DNA of 63,881 nucleotides, counting the filler, from Reclinomonas americana ATCC 50394 (taxonomy: Eukaryota): NCBI GenBank assembly GCA_048213135.1. It is 17 parts of 17 records of this genome, joined end to end, with 100 filler letters (N's around TTAATTAATTAA, not from the genome) between each part and the next. Parts side by side here need not be neighbours in the genome. Positions count along the whole stretch, not along the records: positions 9,664 to 12,210 come from AFZH01019316.1; positions 12,311 to 13,760 come from AFZH01019318.1; positions 13,861 to 18,823 come from AFZH01019319.1; positions 18,924 to 27,490 come from AFZH01019320.1; positions 27,591 to 29,427 come from AFZH01019321.1; positions 29,528 to 35,493 come from AFZH01019322.1; positions 35,594 to 43,946 come from AFZH01019323.1; positions 44,047 to 51,538 come from AFZH01019324.1; 9 more parts are not named here. One strand, written 5' to 3'. Positions 2,783 through 52,299 of the stretch are shown in pieces (position 1 is the stretch's first letter; each line of letters starts with the position of its first letter). The position numbers and the translations under genes were made by a program. The notes below the pieces were generated by a model that had not been told where the DNA came from, ran no database searches, and saw nothing but the letters and a program-made list of their open reading frames with translations.

Positions 2783-2865
2783 AAAGCAAACGAATTTGCC
2801 ATTTTTGTCAATACACATCCCTCTGCTCTTTGCCCGTGCGCGCACACCCACCACACCAGAGATAG

Positions 2866-5858: not shown

Positions 5859-5958
5859 NNNNNNNNNNNNNNNNNNNNNNNNNNNNNNNNNNNNNNNNNN
5901 NNTTAATTAATTAANNNNNNNNNNNNNNNNNNNNNNNNNNNNNNNNNNNNNNNNNNNN
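5859..5958. other. Artificial scaffold linker N44-TTAATTAATTAA-N44 (first of 16)
   Basis: Identical 100-nt spacer with six-frame stops also at 9564, 12211, 13761, 18824, 27491, 29428, 35494, 43947, 51539, 53098, 55747, 57389, 59848, 61350 and 62718. Confidence 0.98.
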
Positions 5959-11998: not shown

Positions 11999-12347
11999 AG
12001 AAGCTCGTGCAAGAGGGCTTCCGCATCCAGTCTCGCCATCGACCCAAAATCGGCAATCAATCGATACCGTCACCAGGGCCACTGGAGTAATCGTCACCTG
12101 GCCCGCCTACCGAGTAAACACAAAGTTTCGCATTGGCTGTTTTACTCACACAAGCGCGCGGACGTTCCGTCACGCGTTACTCGTACGCAAAGAGCTCTGA
12201 GGCTCCATGANNNNNNNNNNNNNNNNNNNNNNNNNNNNNNNNNNNNNNNNNNNNTTAATTAATTAANNNNNNNNNNNNNNNNNNNNNNNNNNNNNNNNNN
12301 NNNNNNNNNNGAGAGAGAGAGAGATGCACACACACACACACACACAC

Positions 12348-12672
12348 CTTTCTTGGCAGTGACACTGGTAGTAGTGACAGACGTGGAAGAAGAAGAAGAG
12401 ACAGGCACTTGTCGCCTCGCCATCGCAGGCACACCACGATGAGCAGACAACCCCGATGCACTCTTCTTCTTCTCCTCATCATCATCGTGGATGTTGATGG
12501 AGAGAGAGGAGGAATGCATCGTCATCATCGTCGTCAAATGCTGCTGGCTGTCGACGAGCATCATGTCTGCTTTCTCATCGTCGCACGGAGAAGAGTCAGA
12601 CATTGACAGTGATGGAGTTGTTGTTGTTGTTGTTGAGTGAGGGCGTGGAGGAGGAGGAGGTCGAGAGGCCAT
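12348..12672 (-). CDS. Array gene copy 0: first exon only (rest in gap or truncated)
   Basis: MASRPPPPPRPHSTTTTTTPSLSMSDSSPCDDEKADMML..SVTAKK followed by a GT(GT)n donor and then the gap. Confidence 0.6.
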
Positions 12673-13860
12673 TTGTGTGTCTTTGCTGTTGTTTCTCGCA
12701 CACACACGCGCACTGCGTGATGCAAGAAGAAGAGAGAGCGAAATGAAGATTCGTTGATCCGAACAGCAAGATGAAAAGGTGACAAGTCGTGATGTGAGGG
12801 GCGAAAGAGGAGGAGTGTTAGGGGAAAAGGGGAAGGAGGAACTGGGCAATCTTGGGTGCATCGTCAACTGCGATTGTTCTCCACGAGCAACACATGTATA
12901 TCTCTTTGTTTTCGGACCTCTTCTGGAGAGAAGATGGATCAGCGGAAGCTGGAGCTGAGATGATGATGGACGACAGCTCCACGTCGGGTTACAACAGCGC
13001 ACGTGAGCAGCTGCATCATGGCAGCATCACCTCGATGGACACCGAGGAAGAGCCGCAGACAAACACAATGAGAAGGTCTCGTTCTCGGCGATGCAGCTGA
13101 ACACCACAACACTGATCGTCATCGAGTCTGCGGTGCAGGAGTATCCACAAAGCAGCACTTCCTTCTGCTCATCCACATCGAACCACATGCACACGAGTCA
13201 TCTGCACAATCTAGCGATGGGTTCTCCCACCCCGCAGCTGCTGGTGGGCCATCATACACCAACGATGTGCTGCTCTGCCGCTGCCATGAACACAGAAGAA
13301 GCACGTGTCGTTGGTTACCAATCTGGCTGGACATGGTCAATAAGACAGCCATTCTCGTGTTTGTCGTTGCTGAGAGTGAGCAACACGCACGAATGCAAAT
13401 GGATGCCCCGGGGCGACTGCACCAACAATACCATGATGGCCCCAATTTCCAATCATTCTTCATTCGTCTAGCTGCCCCTCCTGCGACAACAACAACAGCA
13501 GTCAGCAGCATGAAGGCAAGACTCTCATGCAGAGTCCATCCCGCACAACACAAGGCAACTTCTCAATCAAGCAGTGTCCTTCTTGGTGCACCGTGATTCT
13601 GCTTTTATCTTCTTCTTCTTCGACAAGCTCCATCAATATCTCACAAACAACATGCATGTGTTGCCTGCCCAGTGAAACCTTTCTCCCTGTCTCACTCACC
13701 CGTCCGGCTGCCCCTCATTCCCACTCTCTCAGCACGCACCGATGCACGTATGCCACAGTTNNNNNNNNNNNNNNNNNNNNNNNNNNNNNNNNNNNNNNNN
13801 NNNNTTAATTAATTAANNNNNNNNNNNNNNNNNNNNNNNNNNNNNNNNNNNNNNNNNNNN

Positions 13861-16800
13861 GCGGCGCTGTGAAACACAAGCCACGCAGTATTAAGATGTA
13901 CCTCTCGCATCTCACTGAAGAGAGCGTCGGGCGTACCTTCTTTCTCTTCGCCTCATTGTCGCCGTCATCATCATCTTCTTCCTGCTCACCCTCCCTCTCC
14001 TCCTCTTTTTTCACCATCTCCATCTCCCTGACGACTGGTCACTTGCTTGTGAGTACATGCATGCACTGTGCAGCAATGAAAGTCAGGCAGTCCAACCTCT
14101 TTCACTGCACCACTCGACGGCGCGTGCAATCTCCGCCTGTGAGAGGCAGCCGTCTCGAAGCAGAGTGACCAGCAGATCTGGACAGTTGCGCAGAGCCTGC
14201 ATGGCCTGCGTGGTGAATGGCAGACGAACATTTGAAGCGCCTCCCTTCTGCGACTTTGCTGATTCCTACCATCCGACCCACAGCAATGTGAGCCAGCTTT
14301 CAATGCCGCACATCAGCACACACAAATTCACACGCGCCTCAGAGTAGCCACGTTCGTCAATCACAGTCAGTGGCTTCTCGACGGCATTCACAAGCTCAGC
14401 TTCGCGAAGACCACTCTTCTGATGGTGACATCCACGTCGAAGTCGAGTCAGGGACCACGCACATAACAATCGGAAGGACACTGCAACACCACACCGACAC
14501 TCGCCTCTACGAAGCTGCTCACACTCTCGAGCACGCCCTCCACCGACTTGGGCGTCGTGCTGCGTGTGTTATTAAAACTACTGGCAAGACTCTTGCCAAA
14601 TGCAGACATGACTGCGGCTGAAGGGCTGCCCGGTCCCTTCGATGGTATTCCGCATTCGTCACAGGCAAGTTGGAAGAGAGCACGCTGATGATGGAGGACT
14701 GTGGATCCCATCACCACAGGTGCCATGAGGCCGAATGCCTTCACCAGCATCCTCTTCCTGTTGCAACCCTGCTCCGAGACGAGGTGAGCAGATGGGAGTA
14801 ACGGCATTGTCGGTAACATGCAAAGAGATAGCGGCAACACGCAACAAGCAGTTTCGCCAGCATCACTTGCTCGTTGATGCTCAACTTCCCAGGACAACTT
14901 TTGCGGCGCTGTGAAGGGCAATCCACACAGAGTTGGGACACGCACCTGTGTCACATCTAACGGAAACGAGCGACGGGCGTACCTTGCCATCGTCCTCGTC
15001 CTGCTGCTCTTCCTCCCGCTTCTCCTCTTTCCTCACCGTCTCCATCTCCGTCAGAGCTGTTCAGTCGTTGGTGATCACATGCGCACAAACTGCAGCAAAG
15101 AATCCTCACAGCCAAACCTCGTCCACTGCACCACTCGACAGCACGTGTGATCTCCGACTCGGACAGACATCCGTCTCGGAGCAGAGTGGCCAGCAGGCTT
15201 GGACAGTTGTGGAAGGCATCCACGGCCTGTGTGATGAATGGCAGAAGAGGGTATTGCTTGTTGAGCTGCATCCCCGGCAAGCTTGACGACTCCTGACAAC
15301 CGAATTCCAGAGCACAGAATGTGAGAAAACACCATTCACGACACACAACGTACAGAGCGCAAGGCTGGCATACCTCAGAATAGCCGCGTTCATCCACCAC
15401 AACCAGAGGTCTCTCAATGGCGTCGGTCAGGGCAGCGCCACGCAGCTCACTCTTCTGCATAATGGCACATGCGTGAGGGCTTGTCTCCGATACGGTCGGC
15501 GAGATGAAAGCTGCTCACCTCGATAAAGTAGCTCATCATCTGGAGCACTCCCTCAACTGACTTGGCCGTCCTAGTGCGTGCCGATACGACGACAAAGACA
15601 AAAGTCTTGCCAAAATGAGCTCACAACTGCCGCCGAAAGGCAGCCTGCTTTCGATGGAGGGATGCCACACTCCTTGCATGCAAGGTCAACAAGCAGGCGC
15701 TGATGATGGCGGACTGTAGAACCCTTAATCATCGGTGCCATGATGCCAAACGCCTTCACCAGTATCTCTTTCCTGTTGCAGCACTGCTCTCCCATGAAAC
15801 AGTGGTGTGATGAGCACTCAATCAGCCAGACGACTGCCAGAGAAGGCCATCAATGCAAACACACTCAACAAGAAGCCTCGCCAGCAACAGCTGTTCGTCT
15901 TTGCTCATCATTGCAGAACCTCTCCCTCGCCGCTGTGGATACACATCATCAGATGCTGTCATAGTGTGCAACCGCCTCACCATCCATGGTCGTACCTTGC
16001 TCATGTCACCGTCACCCACGTCGTCGACCTCATCGTCGTCCATTTCCTCCCTCGAATCATCCTCCCGTTCCTCCTCCTCCTCCTTCATCTCTTCTTTCTT
16101 CAGCACCTTCGCCTCCAGCAGAGCTGCAACTCGCTCGTCAGTTCTGACCCCAAGCACGGTAAGACGTACTCGATGCCATCAGACCTCTTTCGCTGCACCA
16201 CTCCACAGCACGTGCGATGTCCGCCTCGGAGAGACAGCCATCTCGAATCAACAACGTCTGCAAGCCAGGGCACTCACGCAGGGCCTGCGCGGCTTGGGAG
16301 ACGAGCGGCAAGAGACGGTCGTTGCTCCTCCCTTTTCTCGCAACCGTCTTCCATGACTCCTACAGCACGACCGACATCGTAGAAGAAGCAGAAGAAGTAC
16401 AAAAAGCGCACAAAGAAAGTTGGCGCACCTCAGAATGGCCCCGTTCGTCCACCACACTCAGTGGTCTCTCAATGGCATCCGCCAGAGCGGCGCCGCGCAG
16501 TTCACTCTTCTGCAAGAGTTGCACACGCATCGTTGTTGCCCTTTCCAGTTATGTGCGAGATGGAAAGAACAGACAGATGCTCACCTCGATGAACTTGCTC
16601 ATGCTCTGCAGCACTCCTGCAACTGACTTGGATGTCTTGGTGCGTGTAGTATTGACGAAATCGCTAAGACTCTTGCCGAATGAGTCCATGACTGCAGACG
16701 GCAGACCGTCTCCTCGAGATGATGAGATGCCGCACTCCTTGCATGCTTGTTCAACGAGAATGCGCCGATGATGCCAGACTGCATTTTGTTTCAGAATAGG

Positions 16801-18550
16801 TGCCATGATGCCGAATGCCTTCACCAGTATCTTCTTCTTGTTGCATCGCTGTTCACAAACACAACGCATACATCAGGTGTGACAGCAGGCGAGCAAATGA
16901 CAGGGTGCAATCAATCTCTCTTGCTGAGGTATCGTGGGACACGCACACGCAACAAGCAGTCTGTCCAACAGCATTCGCTCGTCCGTGCTCAGATACGCAT
17001 CGTGTACGCGGCGATTGCGTTTGCCGGCCTGCAAAATGCATCACATCCACAATCAGCAAGCCTGCCTCACTAACCATGCACAGACAGCCGATGGCATCGT
17101 CGTACGTTTCTCGGCATCGATTCTTTGTCATCGCCACTGCCTGCTTCCACCTGTAAACACGCATGGCATCCATGCTTGGCAAAGTCCACGAAGACACACG
17201 CACCCAGCCTCTGTTACTCATGCACTATTGCTGCGTACCTTGGTGTCATAGTCTTCAAGCTTGACAGCATCCTTCTCTTCTTCCACCTCCTTCTCCTCCT
17301 TCATCACCATCTTCACATCGCCAGATTCTGCGTGGTGCTGATCAATACCAGCGCAAGCAACATCAACAGTCGCACAAAATTGCAGACCTTTCGATCGGCA
17401 CCAAGCAACGGCACATGATATCACGGCCTCAGAGAGGTGGTTGTTGCGGAGCAGAGCAGCCATGAGACCATTGCAGACGCGCAGCGCATCCATAGCCTGC
17501 TTGACAAACGGCAGGAGATGGTCTATCTGGGACTTGTTGGAGGGGCGCAAAATCTCCCACGACTCCTGTCACATTCAAACAGAGTGAATGAAAATCAATA
17601 GACATGATCACAAAAGGCACTGAAGATCATGCAACAGAGCTGACCTCCGAATAACCGCGCTCATCCACCGCGATCAGTGGTCTCTCAACAGCATCCACCA
17701 GGGCCGTGCCAGAGAGTTGGCTCATCTGTAGATTGCAATCATGTGCACGATGGTTCACGGCCACAATTGTCAAAGCACACATGCTTTCTCACCTCGATAT
17801 AGTTGCCCACTCGCCGGAGCACACCTTCCACTGATTTTGGCGTTCTGGCGCGTGAGCCCATGACGCTCAACCCAAGACTCTTGCCAAACGCACAATTGAC
17901 AGCAGACGACGTTTGAACCGGCTCCGACAACGACATCCCACAGTCGCCACAGGCAATCTCAAAGAGGACACTCTGATGGTGGATGACTGTGGATTCATGA
18001 ACAATCGATGCCATCAGGCCAAATGCCTTCAGCAGAATCCTCTTCCGATTGCATCGCTGCGAGTGACACATAGAGAGATGAGGAGAAGGAGGAGTGAGCC
18101 AGGTTGACTAGATGAAGAGAGGGCAAGCACACGCAACGAGCAGCTTGTTCAGCAGCAGCTTCTCGTCTGCGCTCAACTCCTCTGGCTCTTTCGCAGCTCG
18201 ACTCTTGCCACGCTGTGAATCCATAACAAGCATGATTGATACGATAGAACCCATGTGCGAATCGATGCACAAGCACAACAATATCAGCAACAGAATCCAA
18301 ACCTTCTTCTTCTTCTTTGGCGGTGCCAGCTCATCGTCACTGGATGCATCCACCTGCAGACAACGAAGGGAAAACATCAGCTGTCAACTGCGATGCACGA
18401 GCGAGAGGCAGGTTGAGACGCATGCCTCATCGGAGCTCACCTCCAGAGAACGCTTGCGGGACGATGTCTCAACTGAGTCACGTGCAGGCGAGTCCTCATA
18501 GTGATCCACCAGAGACGAGACGACTTGCTGCCTCATCGCATGTTGCTGTT

Positions 18551-18594
<44 letters not shown>

Positions 18595-18749
18595 TTCAGT
18601 GAGAGACAAGCTCATGTTGGGACGACACACAATCACTGTACCTCGACGATGCCTTCCATCGCCGTGTGTTCCACGCGCTCCTGGTGAGCAGCTGTGTACA
18701 TGCACGGCCCAGGTGAGGCATCAAGTGACGCGAGAATATCAATGACTGC

Positions 18750-18801
<52 letters not shown>

Positions 18802-18927
18802 GAGGAGATACACACCACCGTCGNNNNNNNNNNNNNNNNNNNNNNNNNNNNNNNNNNNNNNNNNNNNTTAATTAATTAANNNNNNNNNNNNNNNNNNNNN
18901 NNNNNNNNNNNNNNNNNNNNNNNCGAC

Positions 18928-18996
<69 letters not shown>

Positions 18997-19327
18997 CTTT
19001 CTTGGCAGTGACACTGGTGGTGGTGACAGAGGTGGAAGAAGAAGAAGAGGAGGAGCAATGCACTCGTCGCCTTGCCATCGCAGGCACACCACGATGAGCA
19101 GACGACCCCGATGCGCTCTTCTTCTTCTCCTCATCATCATCATCGTTGATGGAGAGGGAGGAAGAGGAGGAATGCATCATCATCATTGTCGTCACATGCT
19201 GCTTGCAATCGATGAGCATCATGTCTGCTTTTTCATCGTCGCACGGAGAAGAGGCAGACATTGACAGCGAAGGAGTTGTTGTTGTTGTTGAGTGAGGGCG
19301 TGGAGGAGGAGGAGGTCGAGAGGCCAT
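13861..19327 (-). CDS. Array gene copy 1 (modular repeat protein); 3' module(s) in gap; frameshift in one core exon, possible pseudogene
   Basis: Core exons at 17793-18056, 16585-16848, 15519-15783 (265 nt, +1 near 15612) and 14505-14768. Confidence 0.75.
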
Positions 19328-20509: not shown

Positions 20510-23500
20510 CTACATGTCCTCGTTCTCGTCTTCCTGTTCATCCTCCTCCTCCTCCTCATTCTTCACCACCTCCATCTTCACCGGCTTCTCGTCACCCAGC
20601 ACTGCATCACGCGTGTCAGTGCAGATGCTGGCACAACATGCAATAATACAGGTGCTCGCAGATTACTGCATTTGGAGCACTCACCGGCACGTGATATACC
20701 CGCCTTCGAAAGGCAACCATTTCGAAGCAGCGTGGCCAGCAGGCCAGGGCAAGTGCGGAGCACATGCATGGCCTGCGTGACGAGTGGTAGAAGAACGTTT
20801 GGATGATTGTTCTTCGGTAACTCTATTGATTCCTGTCACGCGAAACGAGAAAGCTGAGTCACCAATCACCGAAGCTCCACAGCACACAATCATCGCCCGC
20901 ATACCTCAGAGTAGCCACGCTCATCAATCACAATCAGTGGTCTCTCGACCGCATCCACCAGTTCAGCTCCTCGAAGTCCGCTTTTCTGATGATGACAAGC
21001 GCAGATGGAAGGCAGCTCAATTGCCGTGCACACCACAAGCAGATGTGACATAGAAACACCACACCGACACTAACCTCGATGAAGTTGCTCACGTTCTCGA
21101 GAACACCTTCAGCTGACTTGGGCGTCCTGCCGCGTGTATCTCCGGCACTATTGGCAAGACTCTTGCCAAATGCAGACATTACTGCGGATGACGGGCAGCC
21201 CGGTCCCTCTGACGGTAAGCCGCATTCGTCACAGGCAAGTTGGAAGAGAAGGCGCGGATGTTGGAGGACTGTGGATTGCAGCACCACAGGTGCCATGAAG
21301 CCGAATGCCTTCACCAGTATCCTCTTCTTGTTGCAACCCTGCTCTCGGGTGTGACGGATGGGTGAAAGTGAGCAGGTTACGACAGTATCAGTGGCGGCAT
21401 GCAGAGAAACACGCAACAAGCAATCTCGCCAGCATCAATTGCTCGTTGATGCTCAACTTTGCAGGATCAATCTTTCTGCACTGTGAAACACAAGCCACGC
21501 AGTATTAAGATGTACCTCTCGCATCTCACTGAAGAGAGCGTCGGGCATACCTTCTTTCCCTTCGCCTCATCATCCTCATTCTCGCTGTCATCATCATCCA
21601 CCCTCTCACCCTCCCTCTGCTCCTCATTCTTCACCATCTCCATCTCCCTGACGACTGGTCACTTGCTTGTCAGTACATGCATGCACTGTGCAGCAATGAA
21701 GACAAGCAGCCAAACCTCTTTCACTGCACCACTCGACGGCGCGTGCAATCTCCGCCTGCGAAAGGCAGCCGTCCCGCAGCAGAGTGGCCAGTAGGTCTGC
21801 ACAGCTGCGGAGAGCCTGCCTGGCCTGGGTAACGAATGGCGAAAGAAAATTAGGAGTGCCTCCCTTCTGCGATTTTGCTGTTGATTCCTACCATCCGAGC
21901 CACAGCAATGTGAGCCAGCTTTCAATGCCACACATCAATCAGCACACACAGTTCACACGCACCTCAGAGTAGCCACGCTCGTCAATCACAATCATCGGTC
22001 TCTCGACAACATCCACCAGCTCAGCTCCCCGAAGACCACTCTTCTGATGGTGACATCCACGTCGAAGTCAAGTCAGGCACCGCGCACATACCAATCGGAA
22101 GGATCCTTAAACACCACACTGACACTCGCCTCTATGAAGTAGCTCACACTCTCGAAAACACCCTCCACCGACTTGGATGTCGAGTTGCGTGCGGTTTCCA
22201 CTTCTGGAAAGACTCTTGCCAAAAGCAGACATGACTGCAGATGATGGACACCCTGGTCCCTCCGACGGCATTCCGCATTCGTCACAGGCAAGTTGGAGGA
22301 GAGCACGCTGATGATGGAGGACTGTGGGTGTGAGCACCACGGGTGCCATGAGGCCGAATGCCTTCACCATCATCCTCTTCCTGTTGCAACCCTACTCCCA
22401 AGTGTAATAAGCGGGTGAAAGCCATGAGCAGATGACACTTTTGCAGGCGATACAGTACAGTTGCAGTGAACTCAAAGAACACGCAACAAGAAATCTCGCC
22501 AGCATCAATTGCTCGTTGATGCTCAACTTTGCAGGATCAATCTTGCGGCGCTGTGAAACACAAGCCACAAAGTATTGAGACCAACCTCTCGCATCACAAC
22601 GAATACAGCGTCGGGCGGTACCTTCTTTCTCTTCGCGTCATCGTCCTCATTCTCGCTGTCATCATCATCTTCCTGCTCACCCTCCCTCTCCTCCTCTTTC
22701 TTCACCATCTCCCTCTCCCTCACGACTGTTCACTTGCATGTGAGCACATGCATTATCCTGCCACGAAGACAAGCAGCCAAACCTCTTTCACTGCACCACT
22801 CGACGGCGCGTGCAATTTCTGCCTGCGAAAGGCAGCCGTCCCGAAGCAGAGTGACCAGCAGATCTGGACAGCTGCGCAGAGCCTGCCTGGCCTGTGTGAC
22901 GAAAGGCGAAAGAACATTAGAAGGGCCTCGGTTCTGCGACTTTGCTGCTGATTCCTACCATCCGAGCCACCGCACTGTGAGCCAGCTTTCAATGACGCAC
23001 ATAAGAACACACAGTTCACACGCGCCTCAGAGTAGCCACGTTTGTCAATCACAATCAGCGGTCTCTCGACAGCATTCACCAGCTCAGCTCCCCGAAGACC
23101 ACTTTTCTGATGGTGACATTCACGTCGAAGTCGAGTCAGGGACCACGCACATAACAATCGGAAGGACACTGCACCATCACACCGACACCCACCTCTACGA
23201 AGCTGCTCACACTCTCGAGCACGCCATCCACCGACTTGGGCGTCGTGCTGCGGGTATTGCCGGCACAACTGGCAAGACTCTTTCCAAATGCAGACAAGAC
23301 TGCGGCTGATGGGCAGCCTGGTCCCTTCGATGGTATTCCGCATTGGTCACAGGCAAGTTGGAGGAGAACGCGCTGATGATAGAGGACTGTGGATGGCATC
23401 ACCAGGGGTGCCATGAGGCCGAATGCCTTCACCAGTATCTTCTTCCTGTTGCAGCACTGCTCCAAGATGTGGTGAGCAGATGGGAGTAACGGCATTGTCG

Positions 23501-40800: not shown

Positions 40801-43800
40801 GTAGCCTTGCCAGCAACAGCTGTTCATCGTTGCTCATCATTGCAGAACCACTCTCTCGTCGCTGTGGATACACATCATGAGATGCTGTCAGTGTGCACAA
40901 CCGCCTCACCATCCATGGTCGTACCTTGCTCCTTTCACCATCGCCCATGTCCTCGTCCTCATCGTCGTCCATTTCCTCCCTCGAATCATCCTTCTCCTCC
41001 TCCTCCTCTTTCATCTCTTCTTTTTTCATCACCTTCGCCTCCAGCAGAGCTGCATCTCACTTGTCAGTTCTGACCCCAAGCACGGTAAGACGAACTCGAT
41101 GCCATCAAACCTCTTTCGCCGCACCACTCGACGGCCCGTGCGATCTCCACCTCCGAGAGACAGCCGTCTCGAATCAACGACGTTTGCAAGCCAGGGCACT
41201 CATGCAGGGCCTGCGCGGCTTGGGAGACGAGCGGCAGGAGCCGGTCGTTGCTCTTCCGTTTGCTCTCCATCATCTTCCATGACTCCTACAGCACGGCCGA
41301 CATCGTGGAAGAAGCACGTGAGCCGACACAAACCGAGAAATGCAAAAAATGCGCACAATGGAGATTCGGCACACCGCAGAATGGCCACGTTCGTCCACCA
41401 CATTCAGTGGTCTCTCAATGACATCCGCCAGAGCTGCGCCGCGCAGTTCGCTCTCCTGCAAGAGTTGCACACGCATCGTTGTTGGCTCCCTTTCCAGTTA
41501 AATGTGAGAGATGGACAGAACAAACATATGCTCACCTCAATGAACTTGCTCATGCTCTGGAGCACTCCCTCAACGGACTTGGTCGTCTTGATGCGTGCAT
41601 TTTGGACGACGTTGCCAAGACTCTTGCTGAATGAGTCCATGGATACGGAAGACGGAGAGCCAGTTCCTGAAAAAGGGATCTCACACTCCTTGCATGCGAG
41701 TTCAACGAGAATGCGCTGATGATGCCAGACTGCAGATCGCATCACCACAGGTGCCATGATGCCGAATGCCTTCACCAGTATCTTCTTCTTGTTGCACCGC
41801 TGTTCGCACACATATGAACGCCCAAGTGTAATGACAGGCAGACACATGAAAATGTAAACCAATCAGTCTTGCTGAGGTGCAAAGGACATGCACACGCAAC
41901 AAGCAGTCTGTCCAACGTCATTCGTTCGTCCTTGCTCAAACTCGCATCGAAAGCATCGCGACCACCCTTGACGCGCTGCAAATGCACACACGACGCGACA
42001 TCGACAATCAGCAAGCCTGCCTCATCAACCACGCAGACATTGTCTCGTTATACCTTTCTCGGCTTCGATTCTTCGCCATCGTCACTGCCGGTCTCCACCT
42101 GCGGACACACAAGGCATCAACGCTTGACCAAGTCGATGAAGACTCCCACAAAGCCTCCCTTACTCAAGCACTATTGCTGCGCACCTTGATGTCATCATCT
42201 TCAAGCTTGACGGCATCCTTCTCTTCTTCCACATCCTTCTCCTCCTTCACCACCGTCTTCACATCGCCAGATTCTGCATGGTACTCATCAACATCAATGC
42301 AAGCAACACTAACTGCCACTTGAGATCGCAGACCTTTCGCATGGCACCAAGCGACGGCGCGTGATATCCTGGCCTCGGAGAGGCGACTGTCTCGAAGCAG
42401 AGCAGCCATGAGACCGTCGCACTCGCGCAACGCATCCATGGCCTGCTTGACAAACGGCTGAAGATTGTCTTTCTTGGTTTTGTGCACTGGTGCCAATCTC
42501 ACCCACGATTCCTGTCACAAGCAAGCCGAGTGAACGGAAGTCAGTCGACATGATCACAACACACGCAGAAAATCATGCAACAGAGCTGACCTCCGTATAA
42601 CCGCGCTCATCCACCGCAATCAGTGGTCTCTCAACAGCATCCACCAGAGCCGCGCCACTGAGTTGGCTCATCTGCAGGATTGCAATCACCTGCATGTCGG
42701 TTCACATGCCACGGTCATTCACAGGCACACATGCTTGCTCACCTCGATATAGTTGCCCACTCGCCGGAGCACACCCTCCACTGACTTGGGCATCATGCCT
42801 CGCGAGTTACTCGCAGTCTCGCCAAGTCTCTTGCCAAATGCACACTTGACAGCGGACGACGTGCGACTCCGTTCCGACAACGGAATCCCGCACTCGTCAC
42901 AGGCCAGCTCAAAGAGAACACTCTGATGGTGGATGACTGTGGATCCTTGGACAATAGGCGCCATTAACCCGAATGCCTTCAGCAGAATCCGCTTCCGATT
43001 GCATCGCTGCGAGTGACACGAAGAACAGTGAGTGCGACGAGGAGATGGGTTGCAATGATGCGAGCGCATGCACACGCAACAAGCAGCCTGTTTAGCAACA
43101 GCTTCTCGTTGGCGCTCAACTCCTCTGGTTCTTTCGCAGCTCGACTCTTGCCACGCTGTGAATCCACGATGACAAAAGAGAACCAAATGCAGATCTACGA
43201 ATAAGCACAACAATGTTCAGCGACAGAAAATCCATACCTTCTTCTTCTTTTTCGGCGGTACAAGCTCGTCCTCGCTGGATGCATCCACCTGCAGACAACG
43301 AAGAGAAAACATCAGGTGTCAACAGTCATGCAGGAGCGAGAGCGGCATCTGAGACGCGTGTCTCATCGGAGCTCACCTCTAGAGAATGCTTGCGGGCTGA
43401 TGTCTCGACTGAGTCACGTGCTGGCAAGTCCTCATCGTAATCCACCAGAGACGAGTCGACTCGCTGTCTCCTCGCACGCTGCTGTGCAATCAATCCAAAG
43501 AAAGAGAAGGCCAGTGAGAGACATGCTCATCTTTGGATGACAAACAATCACTGTACCTCGACAATGCCTTCCATCGCCGTGTGTTCCATGTGCTCCTGGT
43601 GAGCAGCTGTGTGCATGCATCACCCTCGTGAGACAACACGTGACGCGCGAGCACCAAAGGCAGCAAGAGAGAGAGAGAGAGACGCACCTTGCGCAGCGAG
43701 ATTCTCCGCGTCGCTTCGGGCAGCGGCAATGGCTGCTGTGCTCTCGTCGGTGAGTTTTTTCATATTCTTGTCCTCCAAGAAGCCAGCTGGTTCTGCAACA

Positions 43801-43847
43801 GGGAATGAAGAAGAAGAAGAAGAACAAGAAGGAGAAGAGAGAGAAGA

Positions 43848-43946
<99 letters not shown>

Positions 43947-44243
43947 NNNNNNNNNNNNNNNNNNNNNNNNNNNNNNNNNNNNNNNNNNNNTTAATTAATT
44001 AANNNNNNNNNNNNNNNNNNNNNNNNNNNNNNNNNNNNNNNNNNNNTCATCCTCATTGCTGTTGATGGAGGGAGAGGAGGAATGCATCGTCATCATCGTC
44101 GTCACATGCTGCTTGCTGTCGATGAGCATCATGTCTGCTTTCTCATCGTCACACGGAGAAGAGGCAGACATTGACAGAGAAGGAGTTGTTGTTGTTGCTG
44201 TTGAGTGAGGGCGTGGAGGAGGAGGACGAGGTCGAGAGGCCAT
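37828..44243 (-). CDS. Array gene copy 4, five modules
   Basis: Core exons at 42743-43006, 41536-41799, 40455-40718, 39442-39705 and 38393-38656, all 264 nt. Stop TAG 37828-37830. Confidence 0.82.
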
Positions 44244-45431: not shown

Positions 45432-48400
45432 CTACATGTCCTCGTCCTCCTCGTCCTCCTCCTCCTCCTCCTCCTCCTCGCCCTCCTCGTCCTCCTCTTT
45501 CTTTACCACCTCCATCTTCACCGGTTTCTCGTCACCCAGCACTGCATCATGCTTGTCAGATCGGATAATGGCACAACATGCAATAATGCAGGTGCTAGCT
45601 CATGGTTGCCGCTGGAGCACTCACCGGCACGCTCAATCTCCTCCTTCGAAAGGCAACCATTTCGAAGCAGAGTAGCCAGCAGGCCAGGACAAGTGCGGAG
45701 CAGATGCATGGCTTGTGTGACAAATGGCAGAAGAAAATTAGGCCTGCCACTCTTCCGCAACTCTGCTGATTCCTGTCAATCGAAAACGAGTAAGTGAGTC
45801 AAGAGTCATTGGTACACGACAGCACAAAACCACCACGGTCCACATGCCTCAGAGTAACCACGCTCGTTAATCACAATCAGTGGTCCCTCGACAGCATCCA
45901 CCAGCTCAGCTCCTCGAAGTCCGCTTTTCTGATAATTCCACGTGCACATTATGGAAGGCAGGTCAGTTGCCATGCACACACCACATGCGGATGTGACACA
46001 GAAATAACAAACTGACACTCACTTCGATGAAATCGCTCACGCTCTGGAGCACACCCTCCACTGACTTGGGCGTTGTGCCGCGTGCCTTGTCGGCACTATT
46101 GGCAAGACTCTTGCCAAATGCAGACATGACTGCAGATGACGGGCAGCCGGGTCCCTCTGACGGTATGTCGCACTCGTCACAGGCAAGCTGGAAGAGAACG
46201 CGCTGATGATGGAGGACTGTAGATGCCATGGCCACAGAGGCCATGAGGCCGAATGCCTTCACCGATATCCTCTTCTTGTTGCAACCCTGCTCTCGGGTGT
46301 GACGGATGGGTGAAAGTGAGCAGGTTACGACAGTATCAGTGGCGGCATGCAGAGAAACACGCAACAAGCAATCTCGCCAGCATCAACTGCTCGTTGATGC
46401 TTAACCTTGCAGGATCAGTCTTTCTGCGCTGTGAAACAGAAGCCACGCAGTATGAAGATGTGCCTCTCGCATCACAAAGGACGCAGCGTCGTCGGGCGTA
46501 CCTTCTTTCCCTTCGCGTCATCATCCTCATTCTCGCTGTCGTCATCATCTTCTTCCTGCTCACCCTTTCTCTCCTTCTCTTTCTTCGCCATCTCCATCTC
46601 CCTGACGACTGGTCACTTGCTTGTCAGCACATGCAGATCTGCATTATCAAGCCACGAAGACAAGCAGCCAAACCTCTTTCACTGCACCACTCGGCGGCGC
46701 GTGCAATCTCCGCCTCCGACAAACAGCCGTCTCGAAGCAGAGTGGCCAGCAAGTCAGGACACCTACAAAGAGCTTGCCTGGCCTGGGTAACGAATGGCGA
46801 AAGAACATTAGAAGGGCCTCGGTTCTGCGACTTTTCTGCTAATTCCTACCATCCGAGCCACGTCAATGTGAGCCAGCTGTCAGTGACGCACATCAGCACA
46901 CACAGTTTCACACGCGCCTCAGAGTAGCCACATTCGTCAATCACAATCAGCGGCCTCTCGACAGCATCCACCAGCTCAGCTCCCCGAAGACCACTCTTCT
47001 GATGGCGACATCCACGTCGAAGTCGAGTCAGGTGCCACGCACACAACAATCGGAAGGATACTGAAACGCCACACCGACACTCACCTCTACGAGGCTGCTC
47101 ATGCTCTCAAGCACACCCTCCACTGACTTGGGCGTCCTGTTGCGTGCCGTGTTGGCACTCCTGGCAAGACTCTTTCCAAATGCAGACATGACTGCGGCTG
47201 AAGGGCTGCCCGGTCCCTTCGATGGTATTCCGCATTCGTCAAAGGCAACTTGGAGGAGAAGGCGCTGATGATGCAAGACTGTGGATTTCAGCACTACGGG
47301 CGCCATGAGGCCGAATGCCTTCACCAGCATCCTCTCCCTATCGCAACCCTGCTCCAAGGTGTGGTGAGCCGATGAGAGTGACAGCAGTGCTGGAAACATG
47401 CAGAGAGATAGCAGCAACACGCAACAAGCAGTTTCGACAGCATCAATTGTTCGTTGATGCTCAGCTTCGCAGGACCACTCTTGCGGCGCTGTGGAGCGCC
47501 ATCCACACAGAGTTAGGACAAGCACCCAACTCGCAACTAACGGAAGCGGGCGATGGGAGCGTACCTTGCCATCGTCCTCGTCCTGCTGCTCTTCCTCCCG
47601 CTTCTCCTCTTTCTTCACCATCTCCAACTTCCGCAGAGCTGTTCAGTCGTTGGTGAGCACATGCACAGTGCAGCCATGAAAGTCACACAGCCGAACCTCG
47701 TTCACTACACCACTCGACGGCGCGTGCAATCTCCGCCTCGGACAGACAGCCGTCTCGGAGCAGAGTGGCCAGCAGGCTTGGGCAGTCGTGGAAGGCATCC
47801 ACGGCCTGTGTGATGAATGGCAGAAGAGGGTATTGCTTGTTGAGCTGCATCCTCGGCAAGCGCGATGACTCCTGACAACCGAATTCCAGAGCACAGAATG
47901 TGAGAAAACACCATTCATGACACAAAACGTACACAGAGCACAAGGCAGGCATACCTCAGAATAGCCGCGTTCATCCACCACAACCACAGGTCTCTCAATG
48001 GCGTCCGTCAGGGCAGAGCCATGCAGTTCACTCTTCTGCATTCCGTACATACTTTAGAGCTGGCCGTTGATTGATTCAGTCAAGTAATATGGACGATACT
48101 CACCTCGATAAGGTCGCTCATCATTTGGAGCACTCCCTCCACTGACTTAGGCGTCTTGGTGCGTGCATGTTGGACGACACCGACAAAACTCTTGCCAAAT
48201 GAGCTCACAACTGCCGACGAAAGGCAGCCTGCTTTCGATGGAGGGACGCCACACTCCTTGCATGCCAGGTCAAAAAGAACACGCTGATGATGGCGGACGG
48301 TGGATTTCATCGCCATCGGTGCCATGATGCCAAATGCCATCACCAGTACTTTCTTCTTGTTGCAGCACTGCTCTCCCATGAATCACATCGGTCACTCAAT

Positions 48401-51400
48401 CAGCCAGACGACTGCCAGAGAAGGACATAAATGCAAACACACGCAACAAGAAGCCTTGCTAGCAGCAGCTGTTCGTCTTTGCTCATTGCCGCAGAACCAC
48501 TCCCTCGTCGCTTTGGACACACATCATGAGATGCTGTCATAGTGTGCACAGCCGCCCCACCAAACATGGTCGTACCTTGCAGCTGTCCCGTTCACCCATG
48601 TTGTCGTCCTCATCTTCTTCCCTCTCGTCACTCGAATCATCCTCCTGTTCTTCCTCTTTCATCTCTTCTTTTTTCATCACCTTCGCCTCCAGCAGAGCTG
48701 CAACTCACTTGTCAGTTCTGACCCCAAGCACGGTAGGACGTACTCGATGCCATCAGACCTCTTTCGGCGCACCACTCGACGGCCCGTGCGATCTCCGCCT
48801 CCGAGAAACAGCCGTCTCGAATCAACGACGTTTGCAAGCCAGGACACTCCCGTAGCGCCTGCGCGGCTTGGAAGACGAGCGGCAGGAGACGGTCCGTGCT
48901 CCTCCCTTTACTTACCACCGTCTGCCATGACATCGTGGAAGAAGCATGTAATTCAACAACTCAAAGCAGAAGTACAAAAAGCGCACAGGGAAAAGTTGGC
49001 GCACCTCAGAATAACCACGTTCATCCACCACAATCAGTGGTCTCTCAATGGCATCTGCCAGAGCGGCGCCGCGCAGTTCACTCTTCTGTCCAGTTGCACA
49101 TGCATCGTTGTTGGCTCCCTTTCCAGTTAAATGTGTGATATCGACTGCACAGACACATGCTCACCTCGATGAAGTTGCTCATGCTCTGGAGCACTCCCTC
49201 AACGGACTTGGGTGTGCTGGCGCGTGCATTTTGGACAAATAAACCAAGGCTCTTGCTGAATGCGTCCATGGCTGCAGGCGACGGGCTACCAGCTCCTGAT
49301 GAAGGAATGCCACACTCCTTGCAGGCGAGTTCAACGAGAACGCGCTGATGATAGAGGACGGCGTTTCCCTTCAGAATAGGTGCCATGATGCCGAATGCCT
49401 TCACCAGTATCTTCTTCCTGTTGCATCGCTGTTTGCACATACACAATACAACAAGTGTTACGACAAGCATGCACACGGAAGAATCAATCACTCAGCCTTG
49501 GTAAGGTGCTGTGGACATGCACACGACACGCAACAAGCAGTCTGTCCAACACCATTCGCTCGTCCTTGCTCATCTCCGCATCGAACGCATAGCGACCACG
49601 TATGACCCGCTGCAAATGCACACATGACGCGACATCCACAATCAGCAAGCCTGCTTCGCCAACCACACAGACAATATCTCATCTACCTTCCTCGCCTTTG
49701 ATTCTTCTCCATCGTCACTGCCGGTCTCCACCTGCGGACACAAGACATTAACGCTTGACAGAGTCGATGAAGAAACGCACAGTCCCACAAAGCCTCTCTT
49801 ACTCATGCACTATTGCTGCGTACCTTGGTGTCATCGTCTTCAAGCTTGACGGCATCATTCTCTTCTTCCACCTCCTTCTCCTCCTTCACCATCATCTTCA
49901 CATCGCCAGATTCTGCGTGGTGCTGATCAATACCAGCGCAAGCAACAGCAACAGCCACACGAAATTGCAGACCGTTCGATTGGCACCAAGCGACAGCACG
50001 TGATATCCCCGCCTCAGAGAGGCGACTGTCTCGAAGCAGAGCAGTCATGAGACCGTCGCACTTGCGCAACGCATCCATGGCCTGCGTGACGTACGACTGA
50101 AGATGGTCATTCTGGGCTTTGCTGTTTGGTGCAAGTCTCTCCCACGATTCCTGTCACAAATAAGCCGAGCGAGCGAAGATCACTGGACATGATCACAACA
50201 CACGCATAGTATCATTGAAAACAAACGCACCTCCGAATACCCACGCACATCCACCACAATTAGTGGACTCCCCACAGCATCTACCAGAGGCGCGCCACTG
50301 AGTAGGCTCATCTGTAGATTGCAATCATCTGAATATCGGTTCAAGATGACATGGTCGTTCACAGTCACACATGCTTGCTCACCTCGATGTAGTTGCTCAC
50401 TCGCCGGAGCGCACCCTCCACTGACTTGGGCATCATGCCTCGCGAGTTACACGCAGTCTCGCCAAGTCTCTTGCCGACTGCACACTTGACTGCAGATGAC
50501 GTGCGACTCCGCTCCGACAACGGAATTCCGCAGTCGTCACAGGCCAGCTCAAAGAGAACACTCTGATAGTGGATGACTGTCGATAGTCGGACAATGGGCG
50601 CCAACAGGCCGAATGCCTTCACCAACACTCTCTTTCGATTGCATCGCTGCGAGTGACACATGAAGAGTTGAGGAGAAGGAGGAGTGCGCTAGGTTGCAAC
50701 GACGACAGAGAACATGCACACGCAACAAGCAGCCTGTTCAGCAACAGCTTCTCTTCTGCGCTCAACTCCTCTGGCTCTTTCGCAGCTCGACTCTTGCCAC
50801 CCTGTGAAATCACGATGACACACAAGAACCAAATGCAGATCTACGAACAAGCACTACAATGTTCAGCGACAGAATATCCACACCTTCTTCTTCTTCTTCT
50901 TTGGCGGTGCCAGCTCGTCGTCGCTGGATGCATCCACCTGCAGAGAACAAAGAAACCATCAGGTGCGAACTGCGATGCACGAGCGAGAGGCAAGTTGAGA
51001 CGCGTGTCACATCGAAGCTCACCTCCAGAGAACGCTTGCGGACCGATGTTTCAACTGCATCACGTGCAGGCGAGTCCTCGTCGTGATCTACCAGAGACGA
51101 GTCGACTTGCTGTCCCCTCGCGCGCTGCTGTGCAACCAAGCCAAGACAGAGAGGGAGAGAGATTACTGAGAGACACGCTCATCTTGGGATGACATACAGC
51201 AACTGTACCTCGACGATGCCTTCCATCGGCGAGTGTTCCACGCGCTCCTGGTGAGCAGCTGTGTCCACCCAGGTGAGACATCGTGACCGAGAACACCAAT
51301 AACTGCGACAGAAAAAGAGAGAGAAAGACGCGCCCTGCTCAGTGCGATTCTCCGCGTCACATCGGGCAGCGGCAATGGCGGCTGTGCTCTCGTCGGTGCG

Positions 51401-51934
51401 CTGCTTCTTCTTCTTGTCCTCCAAGAAGCCAGCTGGCTCTGCAACAGGGAAATCAAGCAACGACAACCCATGAGGAGAAAGAAGAAAAAGAAGAAGAACA
51501 AGAAGAAGGGAGAGAGAGAAGAAGAAGAAGAAGAAGAANNNNNNNNNNNNNNNNNNNNNNNNNNNNNNNNNNNNNNNNNNNNTTAATTAATTAANNNNNN
51601 NNNNNNNNNNNNNNNNNNNNNNNNNNNNNNNNNNNNNNGAAGAAGAGGAGGCAGGCACTCGTCGCCTCGCCATCGCAGGTACACCACGATGAGAAGACGA
51701 CCCCGATGCGCTCTTCTTCTTCTCCGCATCATCATCGTTGCTGTTGATGTTGATGGAGGGAGAGGAGGAATGCATCATCATCGTCGTCGTCGTCACATGC
51801 TGCTTGCTGTCGATGAGCATCATGTCTGCTTTCTCATCGTCGCACGGAGATGAGGCAGACATTGACAGCGGAGTTGTTGTTGTTGCTGTTGAGTGAGGGC
51901 GTGGTGGAGGAGGAGGGGGAGGTGGAGAGGCCAT
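45432..51934 (-). CDS. Array gene copy 5, five modules
   Basis: Core exons at 50383-50646, 49165-49428, 48104-48367, 47085-47348 and 46023-46286, all 264 nt. Stop TAG 45432-45434. Confidence 0.82.
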
Positions 51935-52299
51935 TTGTGCGTGTCTTTGTTGTTGTTTCGCACACACGCGCGCACTGCGTGATGCAAGAAACGAAGAGAG
52001 AAAGCAATGAAGATTCGTTGATCCGAACAGCAAGATGAAAAAAGTGACAAGTCGTGATGTGGAGAGAGGAGGAGGAGGAGGAGGAAGGAGAAGAGGAGTG
52101 TCAGAGAACTGGGCAAACTTGGGTGCATCGTCATCTGCGATTGTTCTCCATGACAAGCAATGCATGTCTCTTTGTTTTCGGACCTCTAGAGGAGAGAACA
52201 TGGATCAGGGAAAGGTGGTGCTGAGATGATGATGGACAACAACTCCACACAAGGTACCACCTTGTCTCTCTCGCGTGACGCCACACTTGCGACTCCCCC

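What the first reader, a model, noticed from the sequence alone, without database searches (positions are those of the whole stretch)
12311..52257. Two-level (higher-order) tandem array: at least 5 genes, each made of 5-6 copies of an unrecognised ~230-aa domain
Seen: every ~8 kb unit carries a minus-strand gene with a low-complexity N-terminus followed by modules in a fixed order (E-D-C-B-A). Each module has the same exon set: a leader (RRKIDPAKLSINEQLMLARLL), an 88-codon core (xCNKKxILVKAFGxMAP..VxHHQ..LACxECG.P....SSAV..AFGKSL..R..TPKSVEGVL..xS.FIE), a 27-aa exon (LRGAxLxDAxERPLIVxDERGYSE), an exon with PFVxQAxxALxxCPGLxAxLLRDGCLSEAEIxRAVEWC, and an acidic linker. 23 of 25 core exons are exactly 264 nt even though module types differ strongly and their introns have diverged, which implies purifying selection on a folded domain. 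Inference: an old intragenic domain amplification followed by recent whole-gene amplification, architecturally analogous to NBPF/Olduvai arrays but with no sequence resemblance to any family I know. Best candidate for an undescribed system.
Basis: partly seen in the sequence, partly recalled or inferred. Interest (0 to 1): 0.88.

Follow-up and report, generated by a model that had tools for sequence, protein, structure and literature searches.

The report
Tandem genes built from repeated modules
A eukaryotic locus carries five head-to-tail copies of an intron-rich gene, each made of five or six copies of a roughly 230-residue protein module that matches no known family; the way it amplified is textbook, but the module itself is uncharacterised.

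Summary
Window 12311-52257 holds five ~7.6-8.9 kb minus-strand units (82-86% nt identity) plus a sixth first exon.

- **Modules.** There are 25 modules of ~1.05 kb, with 5, 5, 5, 6 and 4 per unit. The fifth module of the last unit falls in an assembly join. Each module has five exons: leader, 264-nt core, 81-nt exon, PFV exon and acidic exon.
- **Coding evidence.** Of 100 introns, 90 have GT and 10 GC donors, and 99 end in AG. There are 0 in-frame stops in 3,234 codons. dN/dS averages 0.41 within module types (51 of 51 pairs have dN below dS) and 0.26-0.37 between types. The 26 module exons of unit 2 splice into 1,156 open codons ending at a conserved TAG.
- **Order of events.** A tree places the five-module structure before the gene duplications. 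The sixth module is an A/B chimera, the signature of unequal crossover.
- **Caveats.** The window is 17 pieces joined by N44-TTAATTAATTAA-N44 linkers. Four of 125 module exons and one first exon are frame-disrupted. No RNA data were available.
- **Identity.** Single exons found no homologue in Pfam, PDB, 1.84 billion proteins or contig collections. The spliced module could not be submitted.

Verdict: a real, lineage-specific gene family of unknown function, possibly nuclear.

The parts
12311..52257 (-). Whole array: five gene units, a sixth solitary first exon, and the intergenic spacers
   Evidence: Self-BLASTN; homology ends at 12327 and 52257. The flanks carry unrelated genes.
45432..51934 (-). 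Unit 1 gene (ATG 51934 to stop 45432; modules E-D-C-B-A). Interrupted by the join at 51539-51638. The acceptor of the module D PFV exon is lost.
37828..44243 (-). Unit 2 gene (ATG 44243 to TAG at 37828; modules E-D-C-B-A). All 26 module exons are intact. Exon 1 is cut by the join at 43947-44046.
   Evidence: Spliced module exons give 1,156 open codons ending at the stop. Exon map; upstream exons 2 and 3 at 43688-43792 and 43557-43606.
29539..36652 (-). Unit 3 gene. Exon 1 has a 22-nt deletion. The 27-aa exon of module D is 80 nt (frameshift). Join at 35494-35593 lies inside exon 2.
20510..28225 (-). Unit 4 gene with six modules (E-D-C-B-X-A). Join at 27491-27590.
21551..22550 (-). Extra module X of unit 4. 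It is a chimera: its 5' part (upstream intron and leader) resembles type A, and everything from the second half of the core exon onward resembles type B. Its core exon is 262 nt (2-nt deletion).
   Evidence: Sliding identity: 0.85-0.94 to A against 0.55-0.81 to B at the 5' end, and 0.82-0.92 to B against 0.52-0.82 to A at the 3' end. Deletion shown.
13861..19327 (-). Unit 5 gene, incomplete (modules E-D-C-B only). The piece ends 6 nt into the next leader exon at the join 13761-13860. The core exon of module C is 265 nt (one extra T in a T-run). A second join lies at 18824-18923.
12348..12672 (-). Sixth copy of exon 1 (325 nt, open), followed by a microsatellite and the join at 12211-12310. No module follows it in the window.
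39783..39845 (-). Reference module (unit 2, type B): leader exon, 63 nt, phase 0 to 0
39442..39705 (-). Reference module: core exon, 264 nt. Predicted to form four helices. C3, H28, C37 and C40 are invariant or nearly invariant.
39273..39353 (-). Reference module: 27-aa exon, 81 nt
39042..39210 (-). Reference module: PFV exon, 169 nt, ends in phase 1. Predicted to form three helices.
38878..38984 (-). Reference module: acidic linker exon, 107 nt (18 D+E of 35 residues), ends in phase 0
36653..37827 (-). Intergenic spacer between the stop of unit 2 and the ATG of unit 3. Paralogous spacers follow every unit.
   Evidence: Alignment of spacers. Mean K 0.122 over 10 pairs. No Pfam, Rfam or tRNA hit.
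29428..29527 (.). Example of the artificial joins (N44-TTAATTAATTAA-N44). Here the sequence on both sides abuts without loss when compared with the paralogues.

Best explanation
This is a real, lineage-specific, protein-coding gene family in a eukaryote with short spliceosomal introns.

**History.**
- A five-exon block of ~1.05 kb that begins and ends in codon phase 0 was first duplicated inside one gene. This produced five diverged modules (E-D-C-B-A).
- The whole ~8 kb gene, with its spacer, was then duplicated head to tail at least five times.
- Both steps are explained by unequal homologous recombination between misaligned repeats. The process is still leaving traces, namely a six-module copy with an A/B chimeric module.

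**Selection.** Moderate purifying selection keeps the module exons open while introns drift. Some copies are decaying.

**Predicted product (inferred).**
- About 1,375 residues: a low-complexity N-terminal region rich in Pro, Ser, Thr and Lys, then five mostly helical basic modules (pI 8.6-9.6).
- The modules are separated by acidic linkers of 24-41 residues.
- No signal peptide was seen.

**Function (my guess, about one chance in three).** A soluble, probably nuclear, multivalent nucleic-acid- or chromatin-binding protein. The function itself is not shown.
For: **Shown**
- Two-level repeat.
- 25 modules with the same five exons.
- 100 intra-module introns: 90 GT and 10 GC donors, 99 AG acceptors, 57-107 nt long, only 24 of 100 a multiple of three.
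- 0 in-frame stops in 3,234 codons, against 3.6% stop codons in introns and 4.8% in the off-frames of the same exons.
- In all 51 same-type pairs dN is below dS: mean dN 0.117, dS 0.293, ratio 0.41, with intron K 0.22.
- Between-type dN/dS is 0.26-0.37.
- 121 of 125 module exons are undisrupted, and none is broken by a nonsense substitution.
- Unit 2's 26 module exons splice into 1,156 codons ending at a stop that is conserved in 4 of 4 type-A modules.
- The predicted upstream exons have compatible phases (exon 1 length is 1 mod 3, exon 2 is 105 nt, exon 3 is 50 nt).
- Module types are monophyletic across units, and the extra module is an A/B chimera.
- Three pieces (44047-51538, 35594-43946, 18924-27490) each contain a gene body, the spacer and the next gene's first exon with no join in between. 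Head-to-tail linkage is therefore present inside contiguous sequence.
- Ordinary cellular genes flank the array (UvrD-like helicase, LRR protein, replication factor C subunit, EEP nuclease, carboxylesterase).

**Inferred**
- Soluble and basic modules with acidic linkers, and no hydrophobic N-terminus.
- Helical content, from single-exon AlphaFold models.
Against: - There is no expression evidence of any kind.
- Four of five units carry at least one frame disruption, and unit 3 carries two. At most one or two copies may be functional, unless the defective exons are skipped or the lesions are sequencing errors. Core and 27-aa exons are phase 0 to 0; one lesion is an extra T in a T-run.
- No unit is free of a join, so no gene is contiguous from ATG to stop.
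- dN/dS of 0.3-0.5 is relaxed compared with typical housekeeping genes.
- The fold models are of modest confidence (pLDDT 64 and 78) and cover single exons only.
- The functional guess rests on composition and on sub-threshold hints only: HTH_24 in 3 of 24 PFV exons with best E 0.02, below Pfam's cut-off, and an Atlas row at 0.83 whose members carry HTH_32 in 38% of cases.
Confidence: 0.8

Rival explanations
1. The array is a decaying pseudogene cluster. The open frames are relics of a once-functional gene, and nothing is expressed or selected today.
For: - There are five frame disruptions spread over four of the five units.
- A sixth copy is reduced to its first exon.
- There is no expression evidence.
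- dN/dS is fairly high (0.41).
Against: - There are 0 in-frame stops in 3,234 codons, while the off-frames carry 4.8% stops.
- No nonsense substitution occurs in 125 exons despite ~16% nucleotide divergence.
- dN is below dS in 51 of 51 pairs and also between module types that diverged much earlier.
- Exons are free of indels while each intron set shows 0-10 gap events per pair.
- Unit 2's modules are fully open.
Confidence: 0.1
2. The tandem array is an artefact. The units are alleles, dispersed paralogues or mis-joined pieces that were stitched side by side.
For: - The window is 17 pieces joined by 16 linkers with stops in all six frames. Stitching contigs with such linkers is known practice (passage read in PMC2394751).
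- Eight joins fall in or at the edge of the array, mostly at (GA)n, (GAA)n or (CA)n microsatellites.
- The order and number of units cannot be verified here.
Against: - Three pieces each contain gene body, spacer and the next first exon without a join, and a fourth contains spacer plus first exon.
- All pieces have the same orientation.
- At 29428-29527 the two sides abut exactly, as judged against the paralogues.
- Units differ by 14-18% in nucleotides, far more than alleles usually do.
- The array is bracketed by unique genes.
Confidence: 0.05
3. The module belongs to a known domain family or to a domesticated transposon protein. It was missed because only single exons, not the spliced ~190-residue folded part, could be searched and folded here.
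For: - Weak helix-turn-helix hints: HTH_24 in 3 of 24 PFV exons (best E 0.02) and HTH_AsnC-type in 1.
- An Atlas row at 0.83 with HTH_32 in 38% of its members.
- The control search with the flanking replication-factor-C exon found no hit above 80% identity among the 120 listed of 2,591. The organism and its close relatives therefore seem absent from the protein collections.
Against: - The 88-residue core exon is long enough for Pfam, yet 23 of 23 copies give no consistent family at E up to 10.
- A 23-sequence profile read against 1.84 billion proteins found only 3 hits, all internally repetitive, compositionally odd proteins with no visible similarity on inspection.
- Profiles against PDB sequences gave nothing below E 0.01.
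- No transposase, reverse transcriptase or integrase domain appears in the long frames of a unit.
- The only inverted repeats are low-complexity purine or pyrimidine runs.
- All the HTH hints are below the tools' own noise levels.
Confidence: 0.15

Closest known systems
NBPF genes with Olduvai (DUF1220) domains in primates
   Same: - Amplification of a coding repeat at two levels: multi-exon domain units repeated in tandem inside a gene, in ordered higher-order blocks.
- The genes themselves are multiplied.
- Copy number is changed by unequal recombination.
- Basis: search listing and abstract openings only (bioRxiv 10.1101/2021.07.06.450945; PMC9584774, ~1.6 kb repeat units and three-unit higher-order repeats). 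The two-exon structure of the domain is recalled from memory.
   Different: - No sequence relation: Pfam gave no hit for any exon.
- The module here is ~230 residues in five exons, not ~65 residues in two (the latter figure is recalled).
- The higher-order block here is the whole five-module gene including promoter and stop codon, not a triplet inside one gene.
- The organism is not a primate.
Multi-box nuclear proteins with acidic regions, such as UBF or HMGB (recalled from memory, not tested)
   Same: Several small basic helical modules in a row, combined with acidic stretches rich in Asp, Glu and Ser, and lysine runs. The modules here have pI 8.6-9.6 and the linkers pI 4.1-4.4.
   Different: - No HMG-box or other Pfam match.
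- The modules are about twice as long.
- Acidic segments lie between every pair of modules rather than only at the tail.
- The resemblance is in composition only.
Helix-turn-helix domains (Pfam HTH_24, HTH_AsnC-type, HTH_32)
   Same: The PFV exon is predicted as three helices and contains an LSEAEIARA-type stretch. There are sub-threshold Pfam matches in 3 of 24 and 1 of 24 copies.
   Different: - All matches are below Pfam's thresholds.
- No recognition helix follows the matched stretch before the acidic linker begins.

Membership tests
Tandemly amplified gene family with internal higher-order repeat (a structural kind, not a protein family) | Head-to-tail units sharing one orientation, with junctions present in contiguous sequence | tested here: met
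   (offsets 7.6-8.7 kb); three pieces each hold gene body, spacer and the next exon 1.
Tandemly amplified gene family with internal higher-order repeat (a structural kind, not a protein family) | Sub-repeats of the same position are closer between units than sub-repeats of different positions within a unit | tested here: met
   Tree of 25 modules: E, D, C and A each form one clade at 100% support. B forms one clade with the extra module (99/94).
Protein-coding gene under selection | dN/dS clearly below 1 and frames kept open | tested here: met
Protein-coding gene under selection | Spliced transcripts exist | not testable with these tools
NBPF / Olduvai (DUF1220) | Match to the Olduvai domain model | tested here: not met
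   Pfam scans of core, 27-aa and PFV exons list no such family, even at E up to 10.
Helix-turn-helix DNA-binding domains (HTH_24 and similar) | Score at or above the Pfam gathering threshold | tested here: not met
   Best E 0.02 in 3 of 24 PFV exons; none in 23 core exons.
Helix-turn-helix DNA-binding domains (HTH_24 and similar) | Tri-helical or winged HTH fold | tested here: inconclusive
Transposable-element protein | Transposase, reverse transcriptase or integrase domain, or terminal repeats bounding a unit | tested here: not met
   No Pfam hit in 7 long frames of a unit and its spacer. The listed inverted repeats (25 longest of 35 pairs) are low-complexity runs only.
Zinc-binding module (suggested by conserved C3, H28, C37, C40 of the core exon) | Four ligands brought together in the fold | not tested
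   Conservation comes only.

The most novel reading that the evidence does not exclude
The module is a previously undescribed, mostly helical, basic domain of ~190 residues bearing conserved Cys and His. Five of them are strung on acidic linkers to make a multivalent nuclear protein that binds nucleic acid or chromatin. Valency (modules per gene) and dosage (genes per array) are both tuned by ongoing unequal crossover. This would be a protist counterpart of the Olduvai/NBPF expansion, with diversification concentrated in the loops between conserved helices.
Probability: 0.25. Interest if true: 0.6.

Novelty: new member of a known kind. Interest (0 to 1): 0.45.

Why it matters
- It is an unusually clean natural example of coding-sequence amplification at two nested levels. 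Every intermediate is visible: phase-compatible exon blocks, module types older than the gene copies, and a chimeric extra module that records an unequal crossover displaced by exactly one module.
- The module has no detectable relative, so its fold and function are open.
- If the family is expressed, it adds a new domain to the catalogue.
- It would also give a tractable case for asking how repeat number in a protein and gene number in an array evolve together.
- If it is confined to one poorly sampled lineage, it is one more orphan family, of local interest only.

Tried and rejected
**Homology and fold searches that found nothing usable**
- Word-based protein search with the core exon, longer and near lengths: none.
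- Profile of 23 core exons against 1.84 billion representatives: 3 hits (E 6e-9, 2.7e-4, 2.9e-4). All three are internally repetitive, compositionally odd proteins with no visible similarity on inspection; I rejected them as spurious.
- Pfam on single exons and on all members of both exon alignments: nothing at threshold.
- Profiles against PDB sequences: best E 0.36 (Sarcospan) for the core. For PFV the best are 0.016 (an OspA construct with a repeated 11-residue stretch) and 0.37 (a COI1 leucine-rich repeat). All rejected.
- ESM Atlas: for the core, unnamed bacterial clusters at 0.90-0.91 and an HTH_32-bearing row at 0.83. For PFV, no usable hit.
- AlphaFold2 on the core exon (pLDDT 64) and on the PFV exon (pLDDT 78).
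- Foldseek against PDB: best E 7.0 and 2.3.
- Related loci in metagenome, viral and prokaryote contig collections: none by tblastn.
- Core and PFV exons are not related to each other (hhalign probability 0.6%).

**Other checks**
- Rfam at gathering thresholds: 0 matches. tRNA scan: 0.
- RNAalifold on the most conserved spacer block: 0 of 81 pairs with compensatory change.
- Sequencing runs: no RNA holder listed, so no reads could be laid.
- No whole genome is held for this window.
- Earlier findings of the scan: nothing by place, sequence or words.
- Full-text paper search for three module peptide motifs: 0 papers. This is the only basis for saying the family is not in print, and it is weak.
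- Interaction prediction between core, 27-aa and PFV pieces: the job was never accepted because the queue was full, so there is no result.
- Mapping replication-factor-C proteins onto the window to test continuity across a join: all matches lie inside one piece, so uninformative.
- Reading through in-frame introns to obtain longer contiguous translations: 19 of the 24 in-frame introns contain stops. The five stop-free cases are four copies of the 60-nt type-E intron and one 81-nt intron. I did not pursue this.

Full report
**1. What the window is.** The window is eukaryotic DNA of about 52% G+C and is not contiguous. It contains 32 runs of 44 N, which pair up into 16 identical joins of the form N44-TTAATTAATTAA-N44. 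Seventeen pieces have therefore been stitched together with a linker that stops all six frames. Stitching contigs with such linkers is known practice (passage read in PMC2394751; the linker there differs in detail). Eight joins lie in or at the edge of the reported region: 12211-12310, 13761-13860, 18824-18923, 27491-27590, 29428-29527, 35494-35593, 43947-44046 and 51539-51638. Most sit at (GA)n, (GAA)n or (CA)n microsatellites.

**2.
- Self-BLASTN shows five units at offsets of 7.6-8.7 kb and 82-86% identity, with an inner period of ~1.05 kb at 73-83%.
- tblastn with the exon peptides of one module finds 25 modules, all on the minus strand, in groups of 5, 5, 5, 6 and 4.
- A MAFFT alignment of the 25 modules shows blocks that align without gaps, separated by short indel-rich stretches bounded by GT (or GC) and AG.
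- Projecting one module's boundaries onto all others gives the core exon as 264 nt in 23 of 25 and the next exon as 81 nt in 24 of 25. The leader is 63, 75 or 66 nt in 15, 9 and 1 modules. The PFV exon is 169-178 nt as projected in 23 of 25 modules, shorter in type A, and ends in phase 1. An acidic exon restores phase 0.
- Type E has one extra 45-nt exon.
- The fourth-from-last module of unit 5 is followed by the intron and the first 6 nt of the next leader, then a join. The missing fifth module is therefore an assembly gap, not a deletion.

**3. It is coding sequence under selection.**
- Of 100 intra-module introns, 90 start with GT and 10 with GC, and 99 end with AG. They are 57-107 nt long (median 77), and only 24 are multiples of three.
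- Of the 24 in-frame introns, 19 contain stops.
- Leader, core and 27-aa exons of correct length contain 0 stops in 3,234 codons. Introns carry 3.6% stop codons and the off-frames of the same exons 4.8%.
- Differences between same-type core exons fall 0.152, 0.111 and 0.212 per codon at positions 1, 2 and 3.
- Nei-Gojobori estimates for all 51 same-type pairs give mean dN 0.117, dS 0.293 and a ratio of 0.41 (range 0.18-0.66). dN is below dS in every pair, and intron divergence is 0.22. The pairs are not independent.
- Between module types, dN/dS is 0.26-0.37 with dS 0.41-1.29.
- The 26 module exons of unit 2 splice into 1,156 codons ending at a TAG that is conserved in all four type-A modules.

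**4. Not all copies are intact.** Four of 125 module exons are disrupted:
- a 2-nt deletion in the core exon of the extra module of unit 4;
- one extra T in a T-run in the module C core exon of unit 5;
- a 1-nt deletion in the 27-aa exon of module D of unit 3;
- a lost acceptor, with a 2-nt deletion, before the PFV exon of module D of unit 1.

The first exon of unit 3 also has a 22-nt deletion. None of the lesions is a nonsense substitution. Only unit 2 has all module exons intact. Core and 27-aa exons are phase 0 to 0, so skipping them would keep the frame. Whether that happens is unknown.

**5. Gene structure outside the modules.**
- Each unit starts with a conserved first exon (MASRPPPP..., 324-352 nt where its end could be located, in 4 of 6 copies). 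The ATGs lie at 51934, 44243, 36652, 28225, 19327 and 12672.
- This exon is followed by a microsatellite-rich intron and four small exons. Their lengths (105, 50, 105 and 48-54 nt), together with exon 1 (length 1 mod 3), restore phase 0 before module E.
- The last of these small exons ends in a run of lysines.
- The sixth first exon (12348-12672) runs into a join, and nothing of the family lies beyond it.
- The predicted product is about 1,375 residues.
- The folded parts of the modules have pI 8.6-9.6. The acidic exons have pI 4.1-4.4, with 12-23 Asp+Glu in 24-41 residues.
- The N-terminal exon has no hydrophobic stretch (maximum Kyte-Doolittle 19-residue mean 0.14). The most hydrophobic stretch in the modules scores 1.79 and contains Lys and Arg.

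**6. Is the array real?** Three pieces (44047-51538, 35594-43946, 18924-27490) each contain a gene body, the ~1.3 kb spacer and the next gene's first exon with no join. A fourth (27591-29427) contains spacer plus first exon. At 29428-29527 the two sides abut exactly when compared with the paralogues. All pieces share orientation, the units differ by 14-18%, and unique genes flank the array. Head-to-tail organisation is therefore shown. The order and the number of units across the joins are not.

**7. History and mechanism.**
- In a maximum-likelihood tree of the exon DNA of all 25 modules, types E, D, C and A are each one clade (100% support). B plus the extra module form one clade (99/94). 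The five-module gene thus predates the gene copies.
- Relationships among units differ from type to type (for example U3+U5 in E and D, U1+U3 in B and C, U3+U4 in A). This suggests recombination or conversion between units.
- The extra module of unit 4 resembles type A over its upstream intron and leader (0.85-0.94 against 0.55-0.81 to B). It resembles type B from the second half of the core exon onward (0.82-0.92 against 0.52-0.82 to A).
- The order E-D-C-B-[A/B]-A is exactly the product expected from an unequal crossover between a type-A and a type-B module misaligned by one module.
- Because a module begins and ends in phase 0, such events keep the reading frame.

**8. What the module is.** Nothing known, as far as single exons can tell.
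- Pfam finds no family at threshold.
- A 23-sequence core profile read against 1.84 billion proteins found three hits, all rejected on inspection as spurious (internally repetitive, compositionally odd proteins).
- Profiles against PDB sequences gave nothing credible.
- Three contig collections gave nothing.
- AlphaFold2 predicts four helices for the core exon (pLDDT 64) and three for the PFV exon (pLDDT 78). Neither model has a structural neighbour above background.
- Variable positions fall mainly between or at the ends of the predicted helices.
- C3, H28, C37 and C40 of the core and one Cys of the PFV exon are invariant or nearly so. Metal binding is possible but untested.
- Helix-turn-helix hints are all below noise.
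- One control matters. A conserved exon of the flanking replication-factor-C gene finds no protein above 80% identity among the 120 listed of 2,591 hits. Neither this organism nor a close relative seems to be in the protein collections. 'No homologue' therefore means no distant homologue, and says nothing about sister species.
- The spliced module could not be given to the search or folding tools, which accept only unaltered translations. This is the main gap.

**9. Verdict.** This is a genuine, lineage-specific gene family built by two nested rounds of tandem duplication through unequal recombination. It is under moderate purifying selection, and some copies are decaying. The amplification mechanism is textbook and parallels NBPF/Olduvai in architecture only (listing and abstract openings). 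The module is uncharacterised. My functional guess is a multivalent nuclear nucleic-acid or chromatin binder. It rests on charge pattern, lysine runs, the lack of a signal peptide and helical content, and I give it about one chance in three.

Noticed in passing
window, 16 places (e.g. 5859-5958, 29428-29527, 62718-62817): The window is stitched from 17 pieces by identical linkers (N44-TTAATTAATTAA-N44). Most pieces end in microsatellites. At 29428-29527 no base is missing, whereas at 13761-13860 about one module (~1.07 kb) is missing.
   Followed up: yes
window 36653-37827 and paralogous spacers (e.g. 37340-37571, 44937-45172, 28944-29176, 20019-20251, 13337-13569): The intergenic spacers are less diverged between units (mean K 0.122; most conserved block 0.071) than module introns (0.22) or synonymous sites (0.29). 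No Rfam hit was found, and no compensatory base pairs (0 of 81). The cause could be regulatory constraint, later homogenisation, or inflated module divergence through conversion between module types.
   Followed up: partly
window 52356-53000: A 134-nt tandem repeat (4.8 copies, 82% matches) lies directly upstream of the first unit, where the other units have the conserved spacer.
   Followed up: no
window 12311-52257, intra-module introns: Ten of 100 introns use a GC donor. This is far more than the roughly 1% I recall as typical of most eukaryotes, and GC and GT alternate between paralogous introns.
   Followed up: no
window 49913-49972, 42274-42333, 33994-34053, 17328-17387 (type E, between PFV and acidic exons): The 60-nt 'intron' of type E modules is in frame and stop-free in 4 of 5 copies. 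It may be retained as coding sequence.
   Followed up: no
window 2-2865 (+), 3895-4788 (+), 53518-54432 (+), 58264-58977 (-), 62818-63426 (-): The flanking genes are ordinary: a UvrD-like helicase, a leucine-rich-repeat protein, a replication factor C small subunit, an endonuclease/exonuclease/phosphatase-family protein and a carboxylesterase.
   Followed up: partly
window 35741-36100, 43832-43946, 55848-56387: Long microsatellites are present: (GAA)x120 and (GA)x60 inside the first introns of the array genes, and (AGAA)x133 in the flank.
   Followed up: no
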